Below, in pieces: positions 1 to 4,553 of a stretch of 4,553 bases of DNA. The notes beneath the pieces are model-generated. The model worked only from the letters and a program-made list of their open reading frames with translations. It was not told the DNA's origin and did no database searches. The stretch comes from a virus (lineage: Duplodnaviria; Heunggongvirae; Uroviricota; Caudoviricetes). The translations under genes were made by a program, and so were the position numbers. The stretch lies in IMG/VR virus record IMGVR_UViG_2671180770_000005. One strand, written 5' to 3'. Numbering within the stretch: the first letter of the stretch is position 1; every line of letters begins with the position of its first letter.

Positions 1-16
1 TCGTAAACAATCCCAT
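1..16 (-). CDS. E: Major capsid protein (lambda gpE-like), first 5 codons only (MGLFT...); CDS continues beyond the window start
   Basis: Minus-strand ATG at 16..14 is preceded by an AAGGAA Shine-Dalgarno (plus 24..29) with ~8 nt spacing. It lies ~57 nt downstream of the D stop, matching lambda D-E order and spacing. MGLFT resembles the lambda gpE N-terminus (MSMYTT...) as recalled. Too short for the ORF track. Confidence 0.35.
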
Positions 17-44
17 AAATCAGTTCCTTTCATTCAGAAATCAG

Positions 45-66
45 TCAGGCCACCGCGGTGGCCTGA
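45..66. repeat. 22-bp perfect palindrome TCAGGCCACCGCGGTGGCCTGA in the D-E intergenic spacer (potential GC-rich RNA hairpin, ~9-bp stem with CGCG loop)
   Basis: Read directly from the sequence: positions 45..66 are identical to their reverse complement. It sits 7 nt downstream of the D stop codon (76..74) and upstream of the putative E ribosome-binding site. Confidence 0.6.
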
Positions 67-73
67 TAACGTG

Positions 74-421
74 TTACGGCAGCGCCGCATGACTCAGGGC
101 ACTGCCGGCAAAGGCATTTGCCTTTTTGTGTTCATCCACACTTTCAGGCCAGCGGATTGCCTCCGTCGCAAAGGTCCCCGACTTGTAATAGGTCAGTACC
201 GTCTCTGTGCCTTCAAGCGGCAGTACCAGTATGCCAACTGCACTACCGGCTTTCTGTCCGTCCCAGACCACCAGTTTCCCGGTAGCTTCATCCAGCATCA
301 GGGGCGTCAGTGCCGGTGTTGCCGAGGAAATCCCGCTGCTGCCTGTGGCGGTATGAGCCGGATCATTACCGGCAAAAATACGTACTTCCGCACGCTGTTC
401 AGTGATGGTTTTCGTCACCAT
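74..421 (-). CDS. D: Head decoration protein (lambda gpD-like), 115 aa
   Basis: ORF-track translation MVTKTITEQRAEVRIFAGNDPAHTATG...TPLMLD...KLVVWDG...AVGIL...YKSGTF...AFAG matches recalled lambda gpD motifs (SDPAHTAT, TPLMLD, KLVAWDG, FYKSGTF, AFAGTA). ATG at 421..419; position immediately downstream of C as in lambda. Confidence 0.9.
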   Translation of the reverse strand: MVTKTITEQRAEVRIFAGNDPAHTATGSSGISSATPALTPLMLDEATGKLVVWDGQKAGSAVGILVLPLEGTETVLTYYKSGTFATEAIRWPESVDEHKKANAFAGSALSHAALP

Positions 422-457
422 TTTGTTAAAACCTCATATTGATGGTCAGCACTGACT

Positions 458-1060
458 TCATGGCATGGCCATGAGCATTTTCACGTCCGCATCACCGTCT
501 GCTGACGTCTGTGGCACGCCACCCCGCACCGCTGCCGGTGAATGATTCGCCATGAAATGTTCAAACAGGGCTGTTGTGGATGCAGAGACCGGTTCGGCCT
601 TACCTGATCCCGCAGCCAGCACAGCCCGGGCGTTCTCCACGGTCATTCCCGGGCAGGCCGCCAGTTTTTCAGCCTGCGCTTCTGCCCCTTTTGCCTCATC
701 CAGGGCCATGATCTGATCACGAAGTGAGGGCCCGGCATCCGCCAGTGGTGCAGCCGCCAGGATCGGGCGGGCTTTTTCCACCGTCATCTCCGGCATCGCC
801 GCCAGCGTTGCCGCCAGTTGTTCACGACCTTTCGCTTCTTCACACGCCATAATGCGATCGGCTTCACTCTGCGCGGATGCCACCGGCTGCTGCGGTGCCG
901 CCGCGGCCAGAATCGCCCGGGCCTGTTCAACGCTCATGCCCTGTTGTCCTGCCAGCATCGTGGCAAGCTGTTCACGTCCTTTCGCTTCCTGGCATGTCAG
1001 GATCCCCATCACTCGCTGGTTCTCCTGCGCGGCGGCTTCCGTTGCAGTTAATTGCGGCAT
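458..1060 (-). CDS. nu3: Nested in-frame scaffolding protein (lambda Nu3-like), ~200 aa, translated from an internal start within C
   Basis: Internal ATG at 1060..1058 (Met292 of the C ORF) is preceded on the minus strand by AGAGGAGG-CACT-ATG, a strong Shine-Dalgarno embedded in the codons for R-G-G-T. In lambda, Nu3 is the in-frame C-terminal portion of gene C. The local sequence (GGTMPQLTATE) parallels lambda (SGGRMTKETQ) as recalled. Confidence 0.5.
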   Translation of the reverse strand: MPQLTATEAAAQENQRVMGILTCQEAKGREQLATMLAGQQGMSVEQARAILAAAAPQQPVASAQSEADRIMACEEAKGREQLAATLAAMPEMTVEKARPILAAAPLADAGPSLRDQIMALDEAKGAEAQAEKLAACPGMTVENARAVLAAGSGKAEPVSASTTALFEHFMANHSPAAVRGGVPQTSADGDADVKMLMAMP

Positions 1061-1933
1061 AGTGCCTCCTCTGACATTACTGTTCAGCGCCGTGGCCATC
1101 ACACTGATGGCATCCGACGCATTGATTAATTCATCCGCCAGCCCGGCCTCAATGCCGGACTGACCTTCAAAAACAGCGGCCTCTGTTCCCGTGACTGCAT
1201 CAACAGACAGACCGGTAAACATCGCCACTTTTTCGGCAAACATCCGGCGCGCCGCATCAATCCGCTGCTGCATGTCCTGGCGAACCTCTGCCGGCAACGC
1301 TTCAAACTGATTGCCATCCACCTTGTGCGCCCCTGAGTAAATCAGCGTGATATCCACACCGGCCTGCGCCAGATGACCGGCATAGCTGACATGGCTCATC
1401 ATCACGCCAATGGAACCGATACGGGATGTCTGGGTAACCAGCCGTCGGGAGCAGGCCGACGCCAGCAGCATGGCCGCAGAACAGGCCGTGTCATTACACA
1501 GTGCCCAGACCGGCTTCTGCTGCCGGAGGCGGTAAATCATGTCAGCGCAGTCAAACGCGCCGGCGGCCTGCCCGCCCGGACTGTCAATGTCCAGCAGTAT
1601 GCCCCGCACCTGGCTATCTGCCATTGCCTGCTGAAGACAGGCGACAATGCCGTCATAGCCAGTCATTCCGGAAAATGGCCGCATCCCCCCCAGCCGGTGC
1701 ACCAGCGTGCCGGTCACCGGCAGTACCGCAATACCGTTCACCACCCGGTAAACACGGGCCGGTCGTTTACCTCCGGCCATGTACTCGTCCGTTTCAGCCA
1801 GCATAGGTACCGAAAGACTTGCTGCCCCCATCTCGCGCCCGAGCGCGCAAAAGAAAACCCGCGCATAGGCGGGCTCCAGAAGCAGCGGTTCATTGAATGC
1901 TGCGGCAATAATGTGTGAAAGATTACGTCTCAC
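458..1933 (-). CDS. C: Prohead protease / scaffold protein (lambda gpC-like, S49/ClpP-type serine peptidase domain followed by a Nu3-like scaffold region), 491 aa, GTG start
   Basis: N-terminal ~280 aa resemble recalled lambda gpC (AFNEPLLLEPAYARVFF, GYDGIVACLQQA, GILLDIDSPGG, AGAFDCADMI, KPVWAL, RLVTQTSRIGSIGVMM, ITLIYSGAHKVDGN, TEAAVF, AGLADELIN). The C-terminal part carries a Nu3-like module. The ORF is in-frame with a stop 12 codons upstream of the GTG, so GTG at 1933..1931 is the only plausible start. Confidence 0.9.
   Translation of the reverse strand: MRRNLSHIIAAAFNEPLLLEPAYARVFFCALGREMGAASLSVPMLAETDEYMAGGKRPARVYRVVNGIAVLPVTGTLVHRLGGMRPFSGMTGYDGIVACLQQAMADSQVRGILLDIDSPGGQAAGAFDCADMIYRLRQQKPVWALCNDTACSAAMLLASACSRRLVTQTSRIGSIGVMMSHVSYAGHLAQAGVDITLIYSGAHKVDGNQFEALPAEVRQDMQQRIDAARRMFAEKVAMFTGLSVDAVTGTEAAVFEGQSGIEAGLADELINASDAISVMATALNSNVRGGTMPQLTATEAAAQENQRVMGILTCQEAKGREQLATMLAGQQGMSVEQARAILAAAAPQQPVASAQSEADRIMACEEAKGREQLAATLAAMPEMTVEKARPILAAAPLADAGPSLRDQIMALDEAKGAEAQAEKLAACPGMTVENARAVLAAGSGKAEPVSASTTALFEHFMANHSPAAVRGGVPQTSADGDADVKMLMAMP
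611..1015 (-). repeat. Three tandem degenerate repeats (period ~141-159 nt) inside the C/Nu3 coding region, each encoding a ~40-aa module (IMxxxEAKGxE...LA...PGMTVExARxILAA)
   Basis: Protein level: C ORF residues ~307-346, ~360-396 and ~406-441 align with each other. DNA level: near-identical core TTCACG(A/T)CCTTTCGCTTC at ~971-990 and ~821-840; the third copy (~611-718) is more diverged. Confidence 0.7.
1065..1072 (-). promoter_or_regulatory. Internal Shine-Dalgarno (AGAGGAGG) for the nested Nu3-like start
   Basis: Minus-strand AGAGGAGG lies 4-7 nt upstream of the in-frame ATG at 1060..1058. It is the strongest SD-like element inside the C reading frame that I could see. Confidence 0.5.
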
Positions 1934-3515
1934 GTGGTGTTGTCTCCTCTTCCGGCCTGCGACTCTCCGCTATCTGCTGCTGATACGCCTGCGCTATCCA
2001 CACCGGACGTGAGAGTCCGGCTTTTTCCCGCTCTGCAGATTCCCTGACCTGCTGGCGGAAAATGTCCTGATAATCCTCGCCCATCAGCGCCAGCTCTTTC
2101 TCATACGTGCTCAGTCCGGCCTCAATGCGCATCACTGATTCCTGAACCTCCTTGAGCCCGTCAATGGCCATTCTTCCGGCTCCAATCCACTCAGCCCGTG
2201 ACCAGGCTGATCGCGCCTGATAAAAATCAAAACGTGCCCGTGGCGGACGAATAATCCCCCGAAGAAGTGCCTCTTCCAGCCAGCAGGAAAACATCTGCGT
2301 GGCCAGCCGGGACGCAATAAATTTTCGCCGCCCCATAAAATAGCGCCACGACTCATTGGCGGATGCGCGGGCACTTGAATAACTGACCTTCGAGTAATCA
2401 CGGGACAACTGTTCGTAGGAAACGCCAAGACCGGCGGCGATATACCGCAGCAGCGCCTGTTCAAGCGCCGAAAATCCATTGTCTGAATCCTGCGCGGTCT
2501 GAAGTTTCAGATCATCACCGGGGAAAAGGTGCGGAATTTTGACACCGCCCAGCGTCACGCTATTCGTGTCATACCAGGTGGAGAACTTATCCAGAATATT
2601 AATAAGCGGATTATCCTTCTGCCCCTGCGGCGCACCGGCGATATATTCAAAGGCCTTTTCGGTATCAAGGTCACTTTCAATCGTCGCTGCATACATCGCC
2701 TTCACTATGGCCGACTGAAGCTGTGTTGCCTGCAGGGAATCGAGCATCTTCAGCCGTTCCATTACGCTGTAAAACTGATTGGCCCCACGGGTCTGCCCGT
2801 CCTCCACCGGCTCGAAAATATGCAGCATGGCCGGACGCCCGGTGGGAAGTTCACGCGGGATCCGTTCCCATCGTCCACTCCCGGAGAACGGAAAATCATC
2901 CTCACAGATATGGTACGCAACGGCACGACCATATCGATCGACCTCCACACCGGCCCGCAGAAAACGGTTCCCCATACCGTGTCCTGGCGTGTCCACCCGT
3001 TTCGGACTCACGGCTTTAAAACGCGTACGAAACAGTTGCGTGCTCTCCGTATCCCAGACCGGCTGCACAAAGATTTCGCCGTTAAACGCATGAACGCCCA
3101 CACCTTCACGAATAAATTCCGTAAACGTGCGTTTCTCTTCCACGTCGATCTCGCCAGACATCCCTTCGGCGTATTCCGACCAGGCCGCCTCCACCTCATC
3201 GACAAAACTTTTTGCCGCAGTCTCCCGCATCCCCAGCCAGCGCCAGTTCGGACGATAGCTGATCAGAAACATATGCCCGACAATATGATCCTTATGCAGG
3301 GCCACCGCATTGGCCGCTATCCCGTTATTGCGCACCAGATCATCTGCCCGGGCATTCCCCAGACGCAACGCAGGCAGCAGGGCTGCATCGGCACTCTGCG
3401 CCGGTGGCAACCACTCCGCCATTTGCCCGCCAAATCCTGCGCCGCCCCCGTTGTAGCTGAGACTCTCACGAAGCGGAACGCCGTTCACATCAATCAGGAC
3501 AGGCGTTCGTTTCAT
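1923..3515 (-). CDS. B: Portal protein (lambda gpB-like), 530 aa
   Basis: ORF-track translation matches recalled lambda gpB along its length (DAALLP, GNARADDLVRNNG, SPKR, IPRELP, HIFEPVEDGQTRGANQFYSVME, LQSAIVKAMYAATIES, PGDDLKLQTAQDSDNG, LLRYIAAGLGVSYEQLSR, SARASANESW, GRMAIDGLKEVQESVMRIEAGLSTYEKE). ATG at 3515..3513 overlaps the W stop (ATGA). Confidence 0.95.
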   Translation of the reverse strand: MKRTPVLIDVNGVPLRESLSYNGGGAGFGGQMAEWLPPAQSADAALLPALRLGNARADDLVRNNGIAANAVALHKDHIVGHMFLISYRPNWRWLGMRETAAKSFVDEVEAAWSEYAEGMSGEIDVEEKRTFTEFIREGVGVHAFNGEIFVQPVWDTESTQLFRTRFKAVSPKRVDTPGHGMGNRFLRAGVEVDRYGRAVAYHICEDDFPFSGSGRWERIPRELPTGRPAMLHIFEPVEDGQTRGANQFYSVMERLKMLDSLQATQLQSAIVKAMYAATIESDLDTEKAFEYIAGAPQGQKDNPLINILDKFSTWYDTNSVTLGGVKIPHLFPGDDLKLQTAQDSDNGFSALEQALLRYIAAGLGVSYEQLSRDYSKVSYSSARASANESWRYFMGRRKFIASRLATQMFSCWLEEALLRGIIRPPRARFDFYQARSAWSRAEWIGAGRMAIDGLKEVQESVMRIEAGLSTYEKELALMGEDYQDIFRQQVRESAEREKAGLSRPVWIAQAYQQQIAESRRPEEETTPRET

Positions 3516-3718
3516 AACCTCACTCCCAGCGGACGACGGCGACGCCGGGTTGTCCCCAGTACCGACTCCGCATCATTGATCGCCCGGTTAAGCTCATCCA
3601 GAGAAGCCGCCGTATATTCAATTCTGCGACCATCTTTCTGGACAGACACCACCCGTTTACCGGTTAATAAATCAAGGCGCGCCTGACGTAGCGCCTGTAG
3701 TTCAGCGACTGTAACCAT
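3512..3718 (-). CDS. W: Head completion / head-tail joining protein (lambda gpW-like), 68 aa
   Basis: 68 aa, the same length as lambda gpW. LLTGKRVVSVQKDGRRIEYTAASLDEL resembles recalled lambda W ([27 protein letters not shown]). Strong SD (GGAGGAG) 5 nt upstream of ATG 3718..3716. Lies between terminase and portal as in lambda. Confidence 0.85.
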   Translation of the reverse strand: MVTVAELQALRQARLDLLTGKRVVSVQKDGRRIEYTAASLDELNRAINDAESVLGTTRRRRRPLGVRL

Positions 3719-4553
3719 TCACTCCTCCGGACAGCTTCGCTGCCAGTTCTTTAAGGGTTGGCCGGGTCGTCTCTTCTTCCCGGGATTTTGCTAGTACAGC
3801 CAGATCAAGCTGCCAGCGTTGCACGGACACACGTAATGCCGCGTAGGCATACACCAGGCAGTCCAGCGCTTCGTTACGCCGCTTTTTGTTATCCCACAGC
3901 AGACGCATCTTTCCTTTTTCCCACTTCTCCACAAGCTCTTCCGCGACCAGTTGCTGCGCCTCTGTCTGCGAAAAAATCTCCGGATCATCAGGAAAACGGA
4001 TGGCATACGACGTGGCTTCATCCGCAGGCGTGGGATCGGCTTTCATACGGGCATAGAGAATTTCTTTTGCGGTGTCCGTCCCCACTTCACACAGATACAC
4101 GCCCCGCTGATTGCGGGTTTTCGGCATGGTGATCACCGGCTTGCCATAGACAGATGCGCCTTTTACCGGCAGCACCCGGAAAACACCGTGTTTTTTTGAC
4201 CTCTGATAGACAATTTCACCATCGATCCCCCCGGTGTCCCAGCAGACACGGGAAATGGTCATTTCGGTTCCGTCTGCATGGCAGTATTTTTTGTTGATCG
4301 CCGCATCCACACGTAACAGCGTCTCTTCCTCATCGGGACGGCCCATAATGATGATTTTATCCACCAGAAAAGCTTCCTCTCCCGGTGCCCATCCCCAGAC
4401 ATACATCTCAAAACGGTTTCGCTGCGAGTCAATGCCCGCCGTCAGATAAACCACCCGGGCAGGTACCGCCGCCGTGTAATGCACGACCTTATCCATCAGT
4501 ACCTGGTGATCGAGTTTTTCGCCCACGGCTTCTTCCCAGGTCTCGCCCAGCGT
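3702..4553 (-). CDS. A: Terminase large subunit (lambda gpA-like), C-terminal ~283 codons; 5' portion of the gene lies beyond the window end
   Basis: ORF-track protein (GEKLDHQVLMDKVVHYTAAVPARVVYLTAGIDSQ...CWDTGGID...KHGVFRV...KGASVYGKP...GTDTAKE...TEAQQL...KKRRNEALDC...RWQLDL) closely matches the recalled lambda gpA C-terminal region. The frame stays open through 4527..4553 (TLGETWEEA, as in lambda), so the track start at 4526 is an internal GTG/Val codon, not the true start. Confidence 0.92.
   Translation of the reverse strand, partial: TLGETWEEAVGEKLDHQVLMDKVVHYTAAVPARVVYLTAGIDSQRNRFEMYVWGWAPGEEAFLVDKIIIMGRPDEEETLLRVDAAINKKYCHADGTEMTISRVCWDTGGIDGEIVYQRSKKHGVFRVLPVKGASVYGKPVITMPKTRNQRGVYLCEVGTDTAKEILYARMKADPTPADEATSYAIRFPDDPEIFSQTEAQQLVAEELVEKWEKGKMRLLWDNKKRRNEALDCLVYAYAALRVSVQRWQLDLAVLAKSREEETTRPTLKELAAKLSGGVNGYSR

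What the first reader, a model, noticed from the sequence alone, without database searches (positions are those of the whole stretch)
45..66. 22-bp perfect palindrome between decoration-protein and major-capsid genes
TCAGGCCACCGCGGTGGCCTGA is a perfect inverted repeat able to form a GC-rich hairpin in the late transcript, 7 nt after the D stop and ahead of the E ribosome-binding site. It is followed on the minus strand by CTGATTTCTG, which has only a short T-run, so it is not a canonical intrinsic terminator. It could be an RNA processing or stability element, a translational modulator of E, or a dimeric protein-binding site.
Basis: seen in the sequence. Interest (0 to 1): 0.35.

Follow-up and report, generated by a model that had tools for sequence, protein, structure and literature searches.

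The report
Terminator-type hairpin between phage capsid genes
The 22-base palindrome is real, and it is the phage-21 version of a GC-rich RNA stem-loop that almost all lambda-like phages carry between their decoration gene and major capsid gene; it is an ordinary terminator-type hairpin inside an operon, here with a weak U tail, and its physiological role has never been measured.

Summary
Window 45-66 is a perfect 11+11 palindrome. It lies 7 nt after the stop of the decoration gene (shp/D, minus strand) and 28 nt before the ATG of the major capsid gene. About 0.001 such palindromes are expected per window by chance.

The window is a phage-21-type head module. The same spacer occurs in 1865 of 5426 complete E. 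coli genomes, always at this locus.

Eleven of the 12 diverged decoration-capsid spacer lineages I collected carry a GC-rich hairpin here, each with a different sequence. These include lambda, Gifsy-1, Serratia, Erwinia and Trabulsiella prophages. The stem is kept by compensatory and G·U changes. In 9 of the 11 it is followed by a T-rich tail, so it looks like an intrinsic terminator pointing along late transcription. The 21-type allele has one of the two weakest tails (4 T in 8, one in the first three).

My best reading is a sense-strand RNA stem-loop inside the late operon. It is at most a weak terminator for RNA polymerase not modified by Q, Q-modified polymerase reads through it, and it probably blocks 3' exonucleases.

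A protein-binding site, a dispersed repeat and a translational switch are not supported. No 3'-end data could be accessed. Interest is low: a new member of a known but functionally unresolved kind.

The parts
45..66 (-). Core palindrome and hairpin: 9-bp stem UCAGGCCAC/GUGGCCUGA with loop CGCG
   Evidence: Perfect inverted repeat. RNA fold -16.8 kcal/mol, z = -4.9. Top terminator-like hit on the minus strand.
40..70 (-). Extended stem: GUUA (70-67) pairs with UGAU (43-40), with C44 bulged
   Evidence: Minimum-energy and centroid fold of window 35-73 on the minus strand, -18.4 kcal/mol. The same extension appears.
35..44 (-). 3' tail CUGAUUUCUG: a weak, interrupted U tract
   Evidence: Only 4 T in the 8 nt after the G-C core and 1 in the first 3. 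The family mean is 5.8 in 8, against 2.5 expected from the rest of the spacers.
74..421 (-). Head decoration gene (shp / lambda D homologue, 115 aa); stop codon TAA at 74-76
   Evidence: ORF list. 97% DNA identity over window 1-500 to phage 21, where shp is annotated. Homologues carry PF02924.
25..29 (-). Shine-Dalgarno AAGGA of the major capsid gene
   Evidence: Ribosome-binding site annotated at the same position in phage 21 records. The 18 nt before the ATG are invariant in 62 haplotypes.
1..16 (-). First 16 nt of the major capsid gene (phage 21 gene 7 / lambda E homologue), ATG at 16-14, MGLFT...
   Evidence: Sequence. Identical start annotated in M81255 and OL657228.

Best explanation
The palindrome is the DNA image of an RNA stem-loop that forms in the late (minus-strand) polycistronic mRNA, directly after the decoration-gene stop codon. 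It is the phage-21 allele of a hairpin that lambda-like head modules keep between the decoration gene and the major capsid gene.

In most lineages that hairpin is a co-directional intrinsic terminator: a GC-rich stem followed by a U tract. In the 21 lineage the proximal U tract is interrupted (ACUGAUUU).

Proposed mechanism:
1. RNA polymerase modified by the late antiterminator Q reads through it.
2. Polymerase that is not Q-modified (spurious or read-in transcription in a lysogen) is stopped weakly at best.
3. In the finished or processed transcript, the -17 to -18 kcal/mol stem blocks 3'-to-5' exonucleases and so protects the upstream scaffold-and-decoration-gene segment.

Shown here: the hairpin exists, is non-random, is conserved as a structure on the sense strand, and belongs to a family with T-rich tails. 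Inferred: read-through by Q, weak termination, and stabilisation.
For: 1. The hairpin is real and stable.
2. 11 of the 12 distinct D-E spacer lineages collected from 319 loci carry a GC-rich hairpin with a different sequence. The exception is a 26-nt Providencia spacer. Spacer folding z-scores are -2 or lower in 10 of the 11.
3. On an alignment of 20 hairpin variants, 94.9% of cells pair, against 84.4% in shuffles (0 of 500 reach the observed value) and 24-43% when the 3' partners are slid by 1 to 3 columns. Five of 9 pairs change on both sides, in 22 cells. For example, G-C in most lineages becomes A-U in the 21 type.
4. Non-Watson-Crick cells are 15 G·U on the sense strand against 3 A·C, which would be G·U on the antisense strand.
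5. The 8 nt after the G-C core average 5.8 T, against 2.5 expected from the rest of the spacers. Nine of 11 lineages have at least 5 T. This points to a terminator oriented with late transcription.
6. In phage 21 the other sizeable late-operon gaps also carry sense-strand GC-rich hairpins with T-rich tails: E-FI, I-J and J-stf. The depositors annotated the last two as terminators. Lambda and Gifsy-1 also have a hairpin in the E-FI spacer.
7. Among 62 haplotypes of the 21 type, variation sits mostly in the loop and the two loop-proximal pairs. 40 haplotypes (111 of 153 loci) keep a perfect stem.
8. A genome paper on phage L states that terminators inside lambdoid late operons are not unique to that phage. 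It adds that their roles are unknown, and suggests partial termination or stopping transcription that lacks antitermination.
Against: - No transcript 3'-end, decay or termination measurement was available for this site.
- The U tract of this allele is poor, so termination may be negligible.
- Within the 21 type the stem is only modestly conserved. Stem diversity is about 0.035 per site (mean of the two arms), against 0.048-0.075 at third codon positions. Four of 62 haplotypes carry a destabilising internal mismatch, -5.8 to -9.4 kcal/mol. Many of these are probably decaying prophages.
- Whole-spacer sense and antisense folding energies do not differ consistently.
- A stabiliser after D would not by itself explain the high output of E, and D and E are needed in roughly equal amounts (established lambda biology).
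- The Providencia prophage manages with no hairpin.
Confidence: 0.6

Rival explanations
1. A relic with no present function. The hairpin descends from a true D-E terminator, lost its U tract in the 21 lineage, and now persists only because it is harmless and closely linked to essential genes.
For: It has one of the two weakest T tails of the 11 lineages. Stem diversity in the 21-type population is close to that of synonymous sites, and 22 of 62 haplotypes carry a mismatch. A Providencia prophage has no hairpin. One E. coli strain carries an IS200C insertion right next to it.
Against: The 5' arm is nearly invariant (1 of 9 sites polymorphic). Most changes fall in the loop or the loop-closing pairs, where they cost least. 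The 21-type A-U pair is a two-sided change from the G-C found in relatives, so pairing was kept after the lineages split. 73% of sampled loci keep the perfect stem.
Confidence: 0.17
2. An RNA processing landmark. An endonuclease such as RNase E cuts the AU-rich single strand just 3' of the stem (GA/UUU at window 42-38). This separates a hairpin-capped upstream RNA from the capsid-gene mRNA, which has its own 3' hairpin, and so sets segment-specific stability.
For: The capsid gene is bracketed by hairpins in phage 21, lambda and Gifsy-1. The tail is AU-rich and predicted to be unpaired.
Against: Purely positional; no cleavage data. A 9-13 bp stem is too short for a classical RNase III site. The resemblance to the RNase E motif rests on my memory of its consensus and is weak.
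Confidence: 0.1
3. A translational modulator or coupler. The hairpin, or the helix that closes around it, tunes ribosome access to the capsid-gene start or couples it to termination at the D stop codon.
For: Minimum-energy folds pair CCGUAA (last D codon plus stop) with UUAUGG (capsid-gene start) around the hairpin, in both 21 and Gifsy-1. The hairpin core begins only 8 nt after the stop.
Against: Predicted unpaired probability changes little when the hairpin is disrupted or deleted: Shine-Dalgarno 0.38 against 0.58 and 0.39, AUG 0.42 against 0.40 and 0.48. The closing helix is absent in the L230 and lambda types. The distance from stop to hairpin ranges from 3 to 29 nt across lineages. In lambda, late-gene yields are set by each gene's own initiation region (Sampson et al. 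1988, from memory).
Confidence: 0.08
4. A DNA-level element: a binding site for a dimeric protein, a cruciform, or a target for a hairpin-recognising mobile element.
For: Perfect dyad symmetry including the centre. Both common alleles (CGCG and CATG) are self-complementary. An IS200C sits 5-6 nt 3' of it in one strain.
Against: Other lineages have 3-nt or 6-nt asymmetric loops and different stem sequences, with pairing kept through G·U. The CATG allele forms essentially one clade, so it reflects about one event. The L087 allele has an asymmetric loop, TGCG. The motif occurs only at this locus: the 30-nt and 140-nt queries hit the same 1865 genomes. Only 8 of 1870 records lack 80% coverage of the 140-nt query, and the one I examined is an IS insertion.
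Confidence: 0.04

Closest known systems
Lambda D-E intergenic hairpin (AAAGGCCGC-CUGU-GCGGCUUUUUUU, lambda 6101-6125) and its counterparts in Gifsy-1 and in Erwinia and Serratia prophages
   Same: Same position (between the decoration-gene stop and the capsid-gene ribosome-binding site), same strand, a GGCC-containing GC-rich stem of 8-10 bp, a 3-6 nt loop, and alignable stems with compensatory changes.
   Different: Lambda, Erwinia and Serratia have 7 T in the 8 nt after the stem and look like canonical intrinsic terminators. The 21-type tail is ACUGAUUU. The 21-type stem has A-U where the others have G-C, and its self-complementary 4-nt loop is what makes the DNA a perfect palindrome.
Intra-operon intrinsic terminators of lambdoid late operons, read through by Q-type antitermination (for example the phage 21 I-J and J-stf terminators, and the phage L procapsid-module terminator)
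   Same: Sense-strand GC-rich hairpins in the few sizeable intergenic gaps of a long Q-dependent operon. The literature calls their role unknown and suggests partial termination or blocking transcription that lacks antitermination.
   Different: This one fails a strict U-tract criterion. The phage 21 genome record that annotates the I-J and J-stf terminators does not annotate it.
Intercistronic mRNA-stabilising stem-loops, such as REP elements between malE and malF (from established knowledge, not tested here)
   Same: A stable stem-loop just 3' of a highly expressed cistron inside an operon, able to block 3' exonucleases.
   Different: It is not a dispersed repeat. The downstream gene is needed as abundantly as the upstream one. 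No decay data exist.

Membership tests
Rho-independent (intrinsic) terminator | GC-rich stem-loop (about 5-14 bp, loop 3-8 nt) on the transcribed strand | tested here: met
   9-bp stem, 6 G-C pairs, 4-nt loop, -16.8 kcal/mol, on the late-transcript strand.
Rho-independent (intrinsic) terminator | U-rich tract immediately 3' of the stem, especially in the first 3-4 nt | tested here: not met
   ACUGAUUU: 4 T in 8 and 1 in the first 3. Nine of the 10 other lineages have 5-7 in 8. It passes only the lenient scan criterion, 5 T in a window starting 1 nt after the stem. If the weak extended stem forms, the tail is UUCUGAAU.
Rho-independent (intrinsic) terminator | RNA 3' ends or transcription stop at the site, in vivo or in vitro | not testable with these tools
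   A Term-seq dataset for E. coli O157:H7 Sakai, a serotype whose prophages carry this spacer, is mentioned, but no supplementary data are held.
Conserved D-E intergenic hairpin of lambda-like head modules (defined here) | Hairpin in the spacer between a PF02924 decoration gene and a lambda-E-type capsid gene, sense strand, stem kept by covariation | tested here: met
Dispersed extragenic palindromes (REP or miniature mobile elements) | Many copies at unrelated intergenic sites in a genome | tested here: not met
   The 30-nt palindrome query hits the same 1870 records and 1865 genomes as the 140-nt locus query. The extra places fit the palindrome matching on both strands.
Operator for a dimeric DNA-binding protein | Conserved symmetric half-site sequence across relatives, independent of RNA pairing rules | tested here: not met
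   Half-sites differ between lineages with compensatory and G·U changes and asymmetric loops.
RNase III processing site | Roughly 20 bp or more of near-continuous double-stranded RNA | tested here: not met
   9 bp, or 13 bp with a bulge.
Any curated Rfam family | Covariance-model score at or above the gathering threshold | tested here: not met
   The only match is isrG at 10.5 bits against a threshold of 100, E = 1.8.

The most novel reading that the evidence does not exclude
The hairpin is not a vestigial terminator. It is one half of a conserved pair of stem-loops that bracket the major capsid gene; D-E and E-FI hairpins are both present in phage 21, lambda and Gifsy-1. Together they would cut the late transcript of more than 20 kb into segments of different stability, giving the decoration and capsid messages (each needed at about 400 copies per head) a longer life than the neighbouring low-copy genes.

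A variant of this idea: because the G-C core starts only 3-8 nt after the stop codon in four of the 11 lineages, a ribosome terminating on the decoration gene would mask the 5' arm. The element would then stop only untranslated transcripts.
Probability: 0.15. Interest if true: 0.45.

Novelty: new member of a known kind. Interest (0 to 1): 0.2.

Why it matters
This head module sits in about a third of complete E. coli genomes, including O157:H7 prophages. Even so, the only sizeable non-coding element between its two most abundant structural genes is unannotated and unstudied.

Showing that it belongs to a structurally conserved, terminator-type family gives a concrete test case for an open question: why do operons that depend on antitermination keep internal terminators? 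The candidate answers are insulation against transcription that lacks antitermination, dosage steps, and segmental mRNA stability.

The 21-type allele is close to a natural 'hairpin without U tract' variant of the lambda element, so comparing the two could separate termination from stabilisation. In itself it is an ordinary feature.

Tried and rejected
- **Rfam:** a permissive scan of window 1-600 gave only a meaningless isrG match.
- **Genome scan:** one genome per species returned only 8 loci. Diversity came instead from four viral-contig scans with different decoration proteins.
- **Terminator score:** a d'Aubenton-Carafa-style score, with the formula recalled from memory, was uninformative. 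My hairpin finder extended stems into the U tracts, so even lambda scored negative. I replaced it with T counts after the G-C core.
- **Accessibility of the capsid-gene start:** modelling with the hairpin intact, disrupted or deleted showed no clear effect.
- **Sense versus antisense folding of whole spacers:** no consistent difference. Strand evidence therefore rests on the G·U to A·C counts and the T-tail orientation.
- **Central CGCG/CATG dimorphism:** I asked whether it signals selection for DNA symmetry. The CATG allele forms essentially one clade, so it reflects about one event and is uninformative.
- **Literature:** six full-text searches and several papers found nothing on this hairpin or on the lambda D-E terminator. 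The lambda ribosome-profiling paper and the Casjens-Hendrix review are not held.
- **Tandem repeats:** the repeat finder did not recover the scaffold-gene repeats at the DNA level.

Full report
**What the window is**

All long ORFs lie on the minus strand:
- large terminase (partial), 3702-4526
- a W-like head-completion gene, 3512-3718
- portal, 1923-3515
- protease/scaffold (C/Nu3 type), 458-1933
- a 115-aa decoration protein, 74-421
- the first 16 nt of the next gene

Window 1-500 is 97% identical to phage 21, whose records name these genes 4, 5/6, shp (the lambda D homologue) and 7 (major capsid, the lambda E homologue). The decoration-protein homologues carry PF02924.

**Checking the observation**

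Window 45-66, TCAGGCCACCGCGGTGGCCTGA, is a perfect palindrome with 11-nt arms and no spacer. It is the longest in the window.
- Base composition predicts 0.0011 such palindromes per window, and 2 of 1000 dinucleotide shuffles reached that length.
- On the minus strand the layout is: stop TAA 76-74, seven bases, palindrome 66-45, CTGATTTCTG 44-35, AAGGA 29-25, ATG 16-14.
- As RNA it forms a 9-bp stem with a CGCG loop, -16.8 kcal/mol, z = -4.9.
- Four weak extra pairs and a bulged C extend it to window 70-40, -18.4 kcal/mol.
- The simple terminator scan lists it as the best minus-strand hit, but only through a lenient T-window.

**How widespread it is**

- The spacer is identical in phage 21. 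Neither phage 21 record annotates it.
- A 140-nt query around it hits 1865 of 5426 complete E. coli genomes, always between 'head decoration protein' and 'major capsid protein'.
- A 30-nt query centred on the palindrome hits exactly the same 1870 records and 1865 genomes. It is therefore a single-locus feature, not a dispersed repeat.

**Comparison with diverged relatives**

I collected 319 loci using the decoration proteins of this window, lambda, Gifsy-1 and a Serratia prophage. I extracted every spacer between the decoration-gene stop and the capsid-gene start, which gave 40 distinct spacers falling into about 12 lineages.

Eleven lineages carry a GC-rich hairpin, each with its own sequence:

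| Lineage | Stem-loop-stem | Tail |
|---|---|---|
| 21 type | UCAGGCCAC-CGCG-GUGGCCUGA | CUGAUUUCUG |
| lambda | AAAGGCCGC-CUGU-GCGGCUUU | UUUU |
| Gifsy-1 | AAGGCCGC-GAA-GCGGCCUU | UAUCGUAUUU |
| L230 type | CAGGCCGC-ACA-GCGGCCUG | UUCUGUUUUU |
| Serratia | AAAGGCUGCC-AAUU-GGCGGCCUUU | UUAUUA |
| Erwinia | GGGCCGC-AAAA-GCGGCC | UUUUUUU |

The others are similar. Only a 26-nt Providencia spacer has none. Spacer folding z-scores are -2 or lower in 10 of the 11.

**Covariation**

I aligned 20 hairpin variants and counted pairs for the 9-bp stem.
- 94.9% of cells pair, against 84.4% in column shuffles (0 of 500 reach the observed value) and 24-43% when the 3' partners are slid by 1 to 3 columns.
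- Five of nine pairs show changes on both sides, in 22 cells.
- The clearest case is the second pair from the loop: G-C in 13 sequences and A-U in the five 21-type sequences that keep it paired.

Caveats: I cut the segments out by eye, the structure was derived from these same sequences, and the sequences are related. The numbers overstate independence, but the direction is unambiguous.

**Which strand and which molecule**

- Among non-Watson-Crick cells, 15 are G·U on the sense strand. Only 3 are A·C, which would be G·U on the other strand.
- The 8 nt after the G-C core average 5.8 T, against 2.5 expected from the rest of the same spacers. Nine of 11 lineages have 5-7 T.
- Loops of 3 or 6 nt and differing half-sites exclude a conserved symmetric DNA site.

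Together this says the selected object is an RNA hairpin on the late transcript, of the intrinsic-terminator type and pointing along late transcription. Whole-spacer sense and antisense energies do not add to this.

**Where the 21-type allele stands**

- It has one of the two weakest tails: ACUGAUUU, 4 T in 8, with only one in the first three positions.
- Its nearest structural relative is the L230 type, whose decoration protein is 78% identical. The two share AUCAGGCC...GGCCUG, but in L230 this is followed directly by UUCUGUUUUU.
- So the 21 lineage looks as if it lengthened the stem (UCAG...CUGA) and pushed the U-rich run away.
- The perfect DNA palindrome follows simply from the 4-nt loop being self-complementary.

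**Variation within the 21 type**

Among 153 loci and 62 distinct 555-nt haplotypes:

| Region | Polymorphic sites | Diversity per site |
|---|---|---|
| loop | 3 of 4 | 0.245 |
| 3' arm | 4 of 9 | 0.067 |
| 5' arm | 1 of 9 | 0.004 |
| 18 nt before the ATG | 0 of 18 | 0.000 |
| third codon positions (D, E) | 37%, 28% | 0.075, 0.048 |

- 40 haplotypes (111 loci) keep the perfect stem.
- 18 haplotypes only open the loop-closing or second pair (-12 to -13 kcal/mol).
- 4 haplotypes carry an internal mismatch (-5.8 to -9.4 kcal/mol).
- The two common loop alleles, CGCG and CATG, are both self-complementary. However, CATG forms essentially one clade, so it reflects about one event and tells us nothing about selection for DNA symmetry.

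Constraint on the stem is therefore real but mild at this shallow depth. That is what one expects for a robust 9-bp GC-rich stem sampled largely from prophages, many of which may be decaying.

**Operon context**

In phage 21 the late operon from Nu1 to the side tail fibre has only five sizeable gaps. Four carry sense-strand GC-rich hairpins: D-E, E-FI (GCGGGGGC-GAAAU-GCCCCCGU followed by GUCUUUUUUC), I-J and J-stf. The depositors annotated the last two as terminators. Lambda and Gifsy-1 also have a hairpin in the E-FI spacer. The capsid gene is thus bracketed by hairpins in three lineages.

**Mechanism**

Shown:
- A stable, non-random stem-loop on the sense strand.
- Its structure is conserved.
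- It belongs to a family whose members mostly have terminator-type U tracts.

Inferred from established lambdoid biology (late transcription from a single promoter by Q-modified, terminator-resistant polymerase):
- The element is transparent to productive late transcription.
- It can act only on unmodified polymerase, weakly here because of the tail.
- After transcription it can act as a 3'-exonuclease barrier.

[quoted passage not shown] It offers partial termination, or stopping transcription that lacks antitermination, as possibilities.

I put 0.6 on the statement 'terminator-type sense-strand RNA hairpin, with weak or no termination in this allele and a likely stabilising role'. Within that, I have no basis for choosing between insulation and stabilisation.

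**Rivals**

- Translational role: gets no support from accessibility modelling. The helix that pairs the D stop with the capsid-gene AUG in 21 and Gifsy-1 is not seen in other lineages.
- Processing-site role: compatible with the bracketing of the capsid gene, but has no direct evidence.
- Pure relic: cannot be excluded (0.17).
- DNA-level role: contradicted by the covariation pattern and the single-locus distribution.

**Literature**

Six full-text searches found no study of this hairpin or of the lambda D-E hairpin. Term-seq data exist for E. coli O157:H7 Sakai, a serotype whose prophages carry this spacer, but I could not reach them.

**Verdict**

This is an ordinary, previously unannotated member of a known but functionally unresolved class. 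Its main value is as a natural low-U-tract variant for testing what intra-operon terminators do.

Noticed in passing
L004 1590-2320 (E. coli B19429, NZ_CP142919), corresponding to window ~38-40: An IS200C element (tnpA plus its own terminal hairpins) is inserted in the D-E spacer 5-6 nt 3' of the palindrome, between the hairpin and the capsid-gene ribosome-binding site. The junctions read ...GGCCTGACTGATT|IS|TTTCTGAATG. Only 8 of 1870 E. coli records fail to cover 80% of the 140-nt query, so disruptions of this spacer are rare.
   Followed up: partly
L320 (phage 21, OL657228) 7389-7409, 15649-15673, 19194-19213; L003 1464-1481; L005 2913-2933: Every sizeable late-operon gap in phage 21 except C-D has a sense-strand GC-rich hairpin with a T-rich tail. 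The E-FI spacer has one in phage 21, lambda and Gifsy-1, so the major capsid gene is bracketed by hairpins in all three.
   Followed up: partly
window 599-993, minus strand (inside the C/Nu3 ORF 458-1933): The scaffold part of the protease/scaffold protein contains three tandem repeats of about 35 aa (…EAKGREQLA…ARxILAAA…). These are the 'Tri boxes', function unknown, annotated in phage 21 record M81255. They are too diverged for Tandem Repeats Finder at the DNA level.
   Followed up: partly
window 107-122, plus strand: A terminator-like hairpin, GGCAAAGGCATTTGCC followed by TTTTTGTGTT, lies on the strand antisense to the decoration gene, inside its coding region. A similar hit lies at the matching position in phage 21.
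   Followed up: no
window 54-57 (centre of the palindrome): The loop is dimorphic in E. coli prophages: CGCG (makes a SacII site, CCGCGG) or CATG (makes an NcoI site, CCATGG). Both are self-complementary, so both alleles are perfect 22-bp palindromes. The CATG allele forms essentially one clade.
   Followed up: yes
window 17-34, minus strand: The 18 nt upstream of the capsid-gene ATG (GAATGAAAGGAACTGATTT) are invariant in all 62 haplotypes of the 21 type. This is far more conserved than the hairpin or than synonymous sites.
   Followed up: partly
window 74-79 with 12-17, minus strand; also L005 1816-1821 with 1874-1879: Predicted folds pair CCGUAA (last decoration-gene codon plus stop) with UUAUGG (capsid-gene start codon region), closing a helix around the hairpin in both phage 21 and Gifsy-1. 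It is absent in the lambda and L230-type spacers and may be a by-product of the coding sequence.
   Followed up: partly
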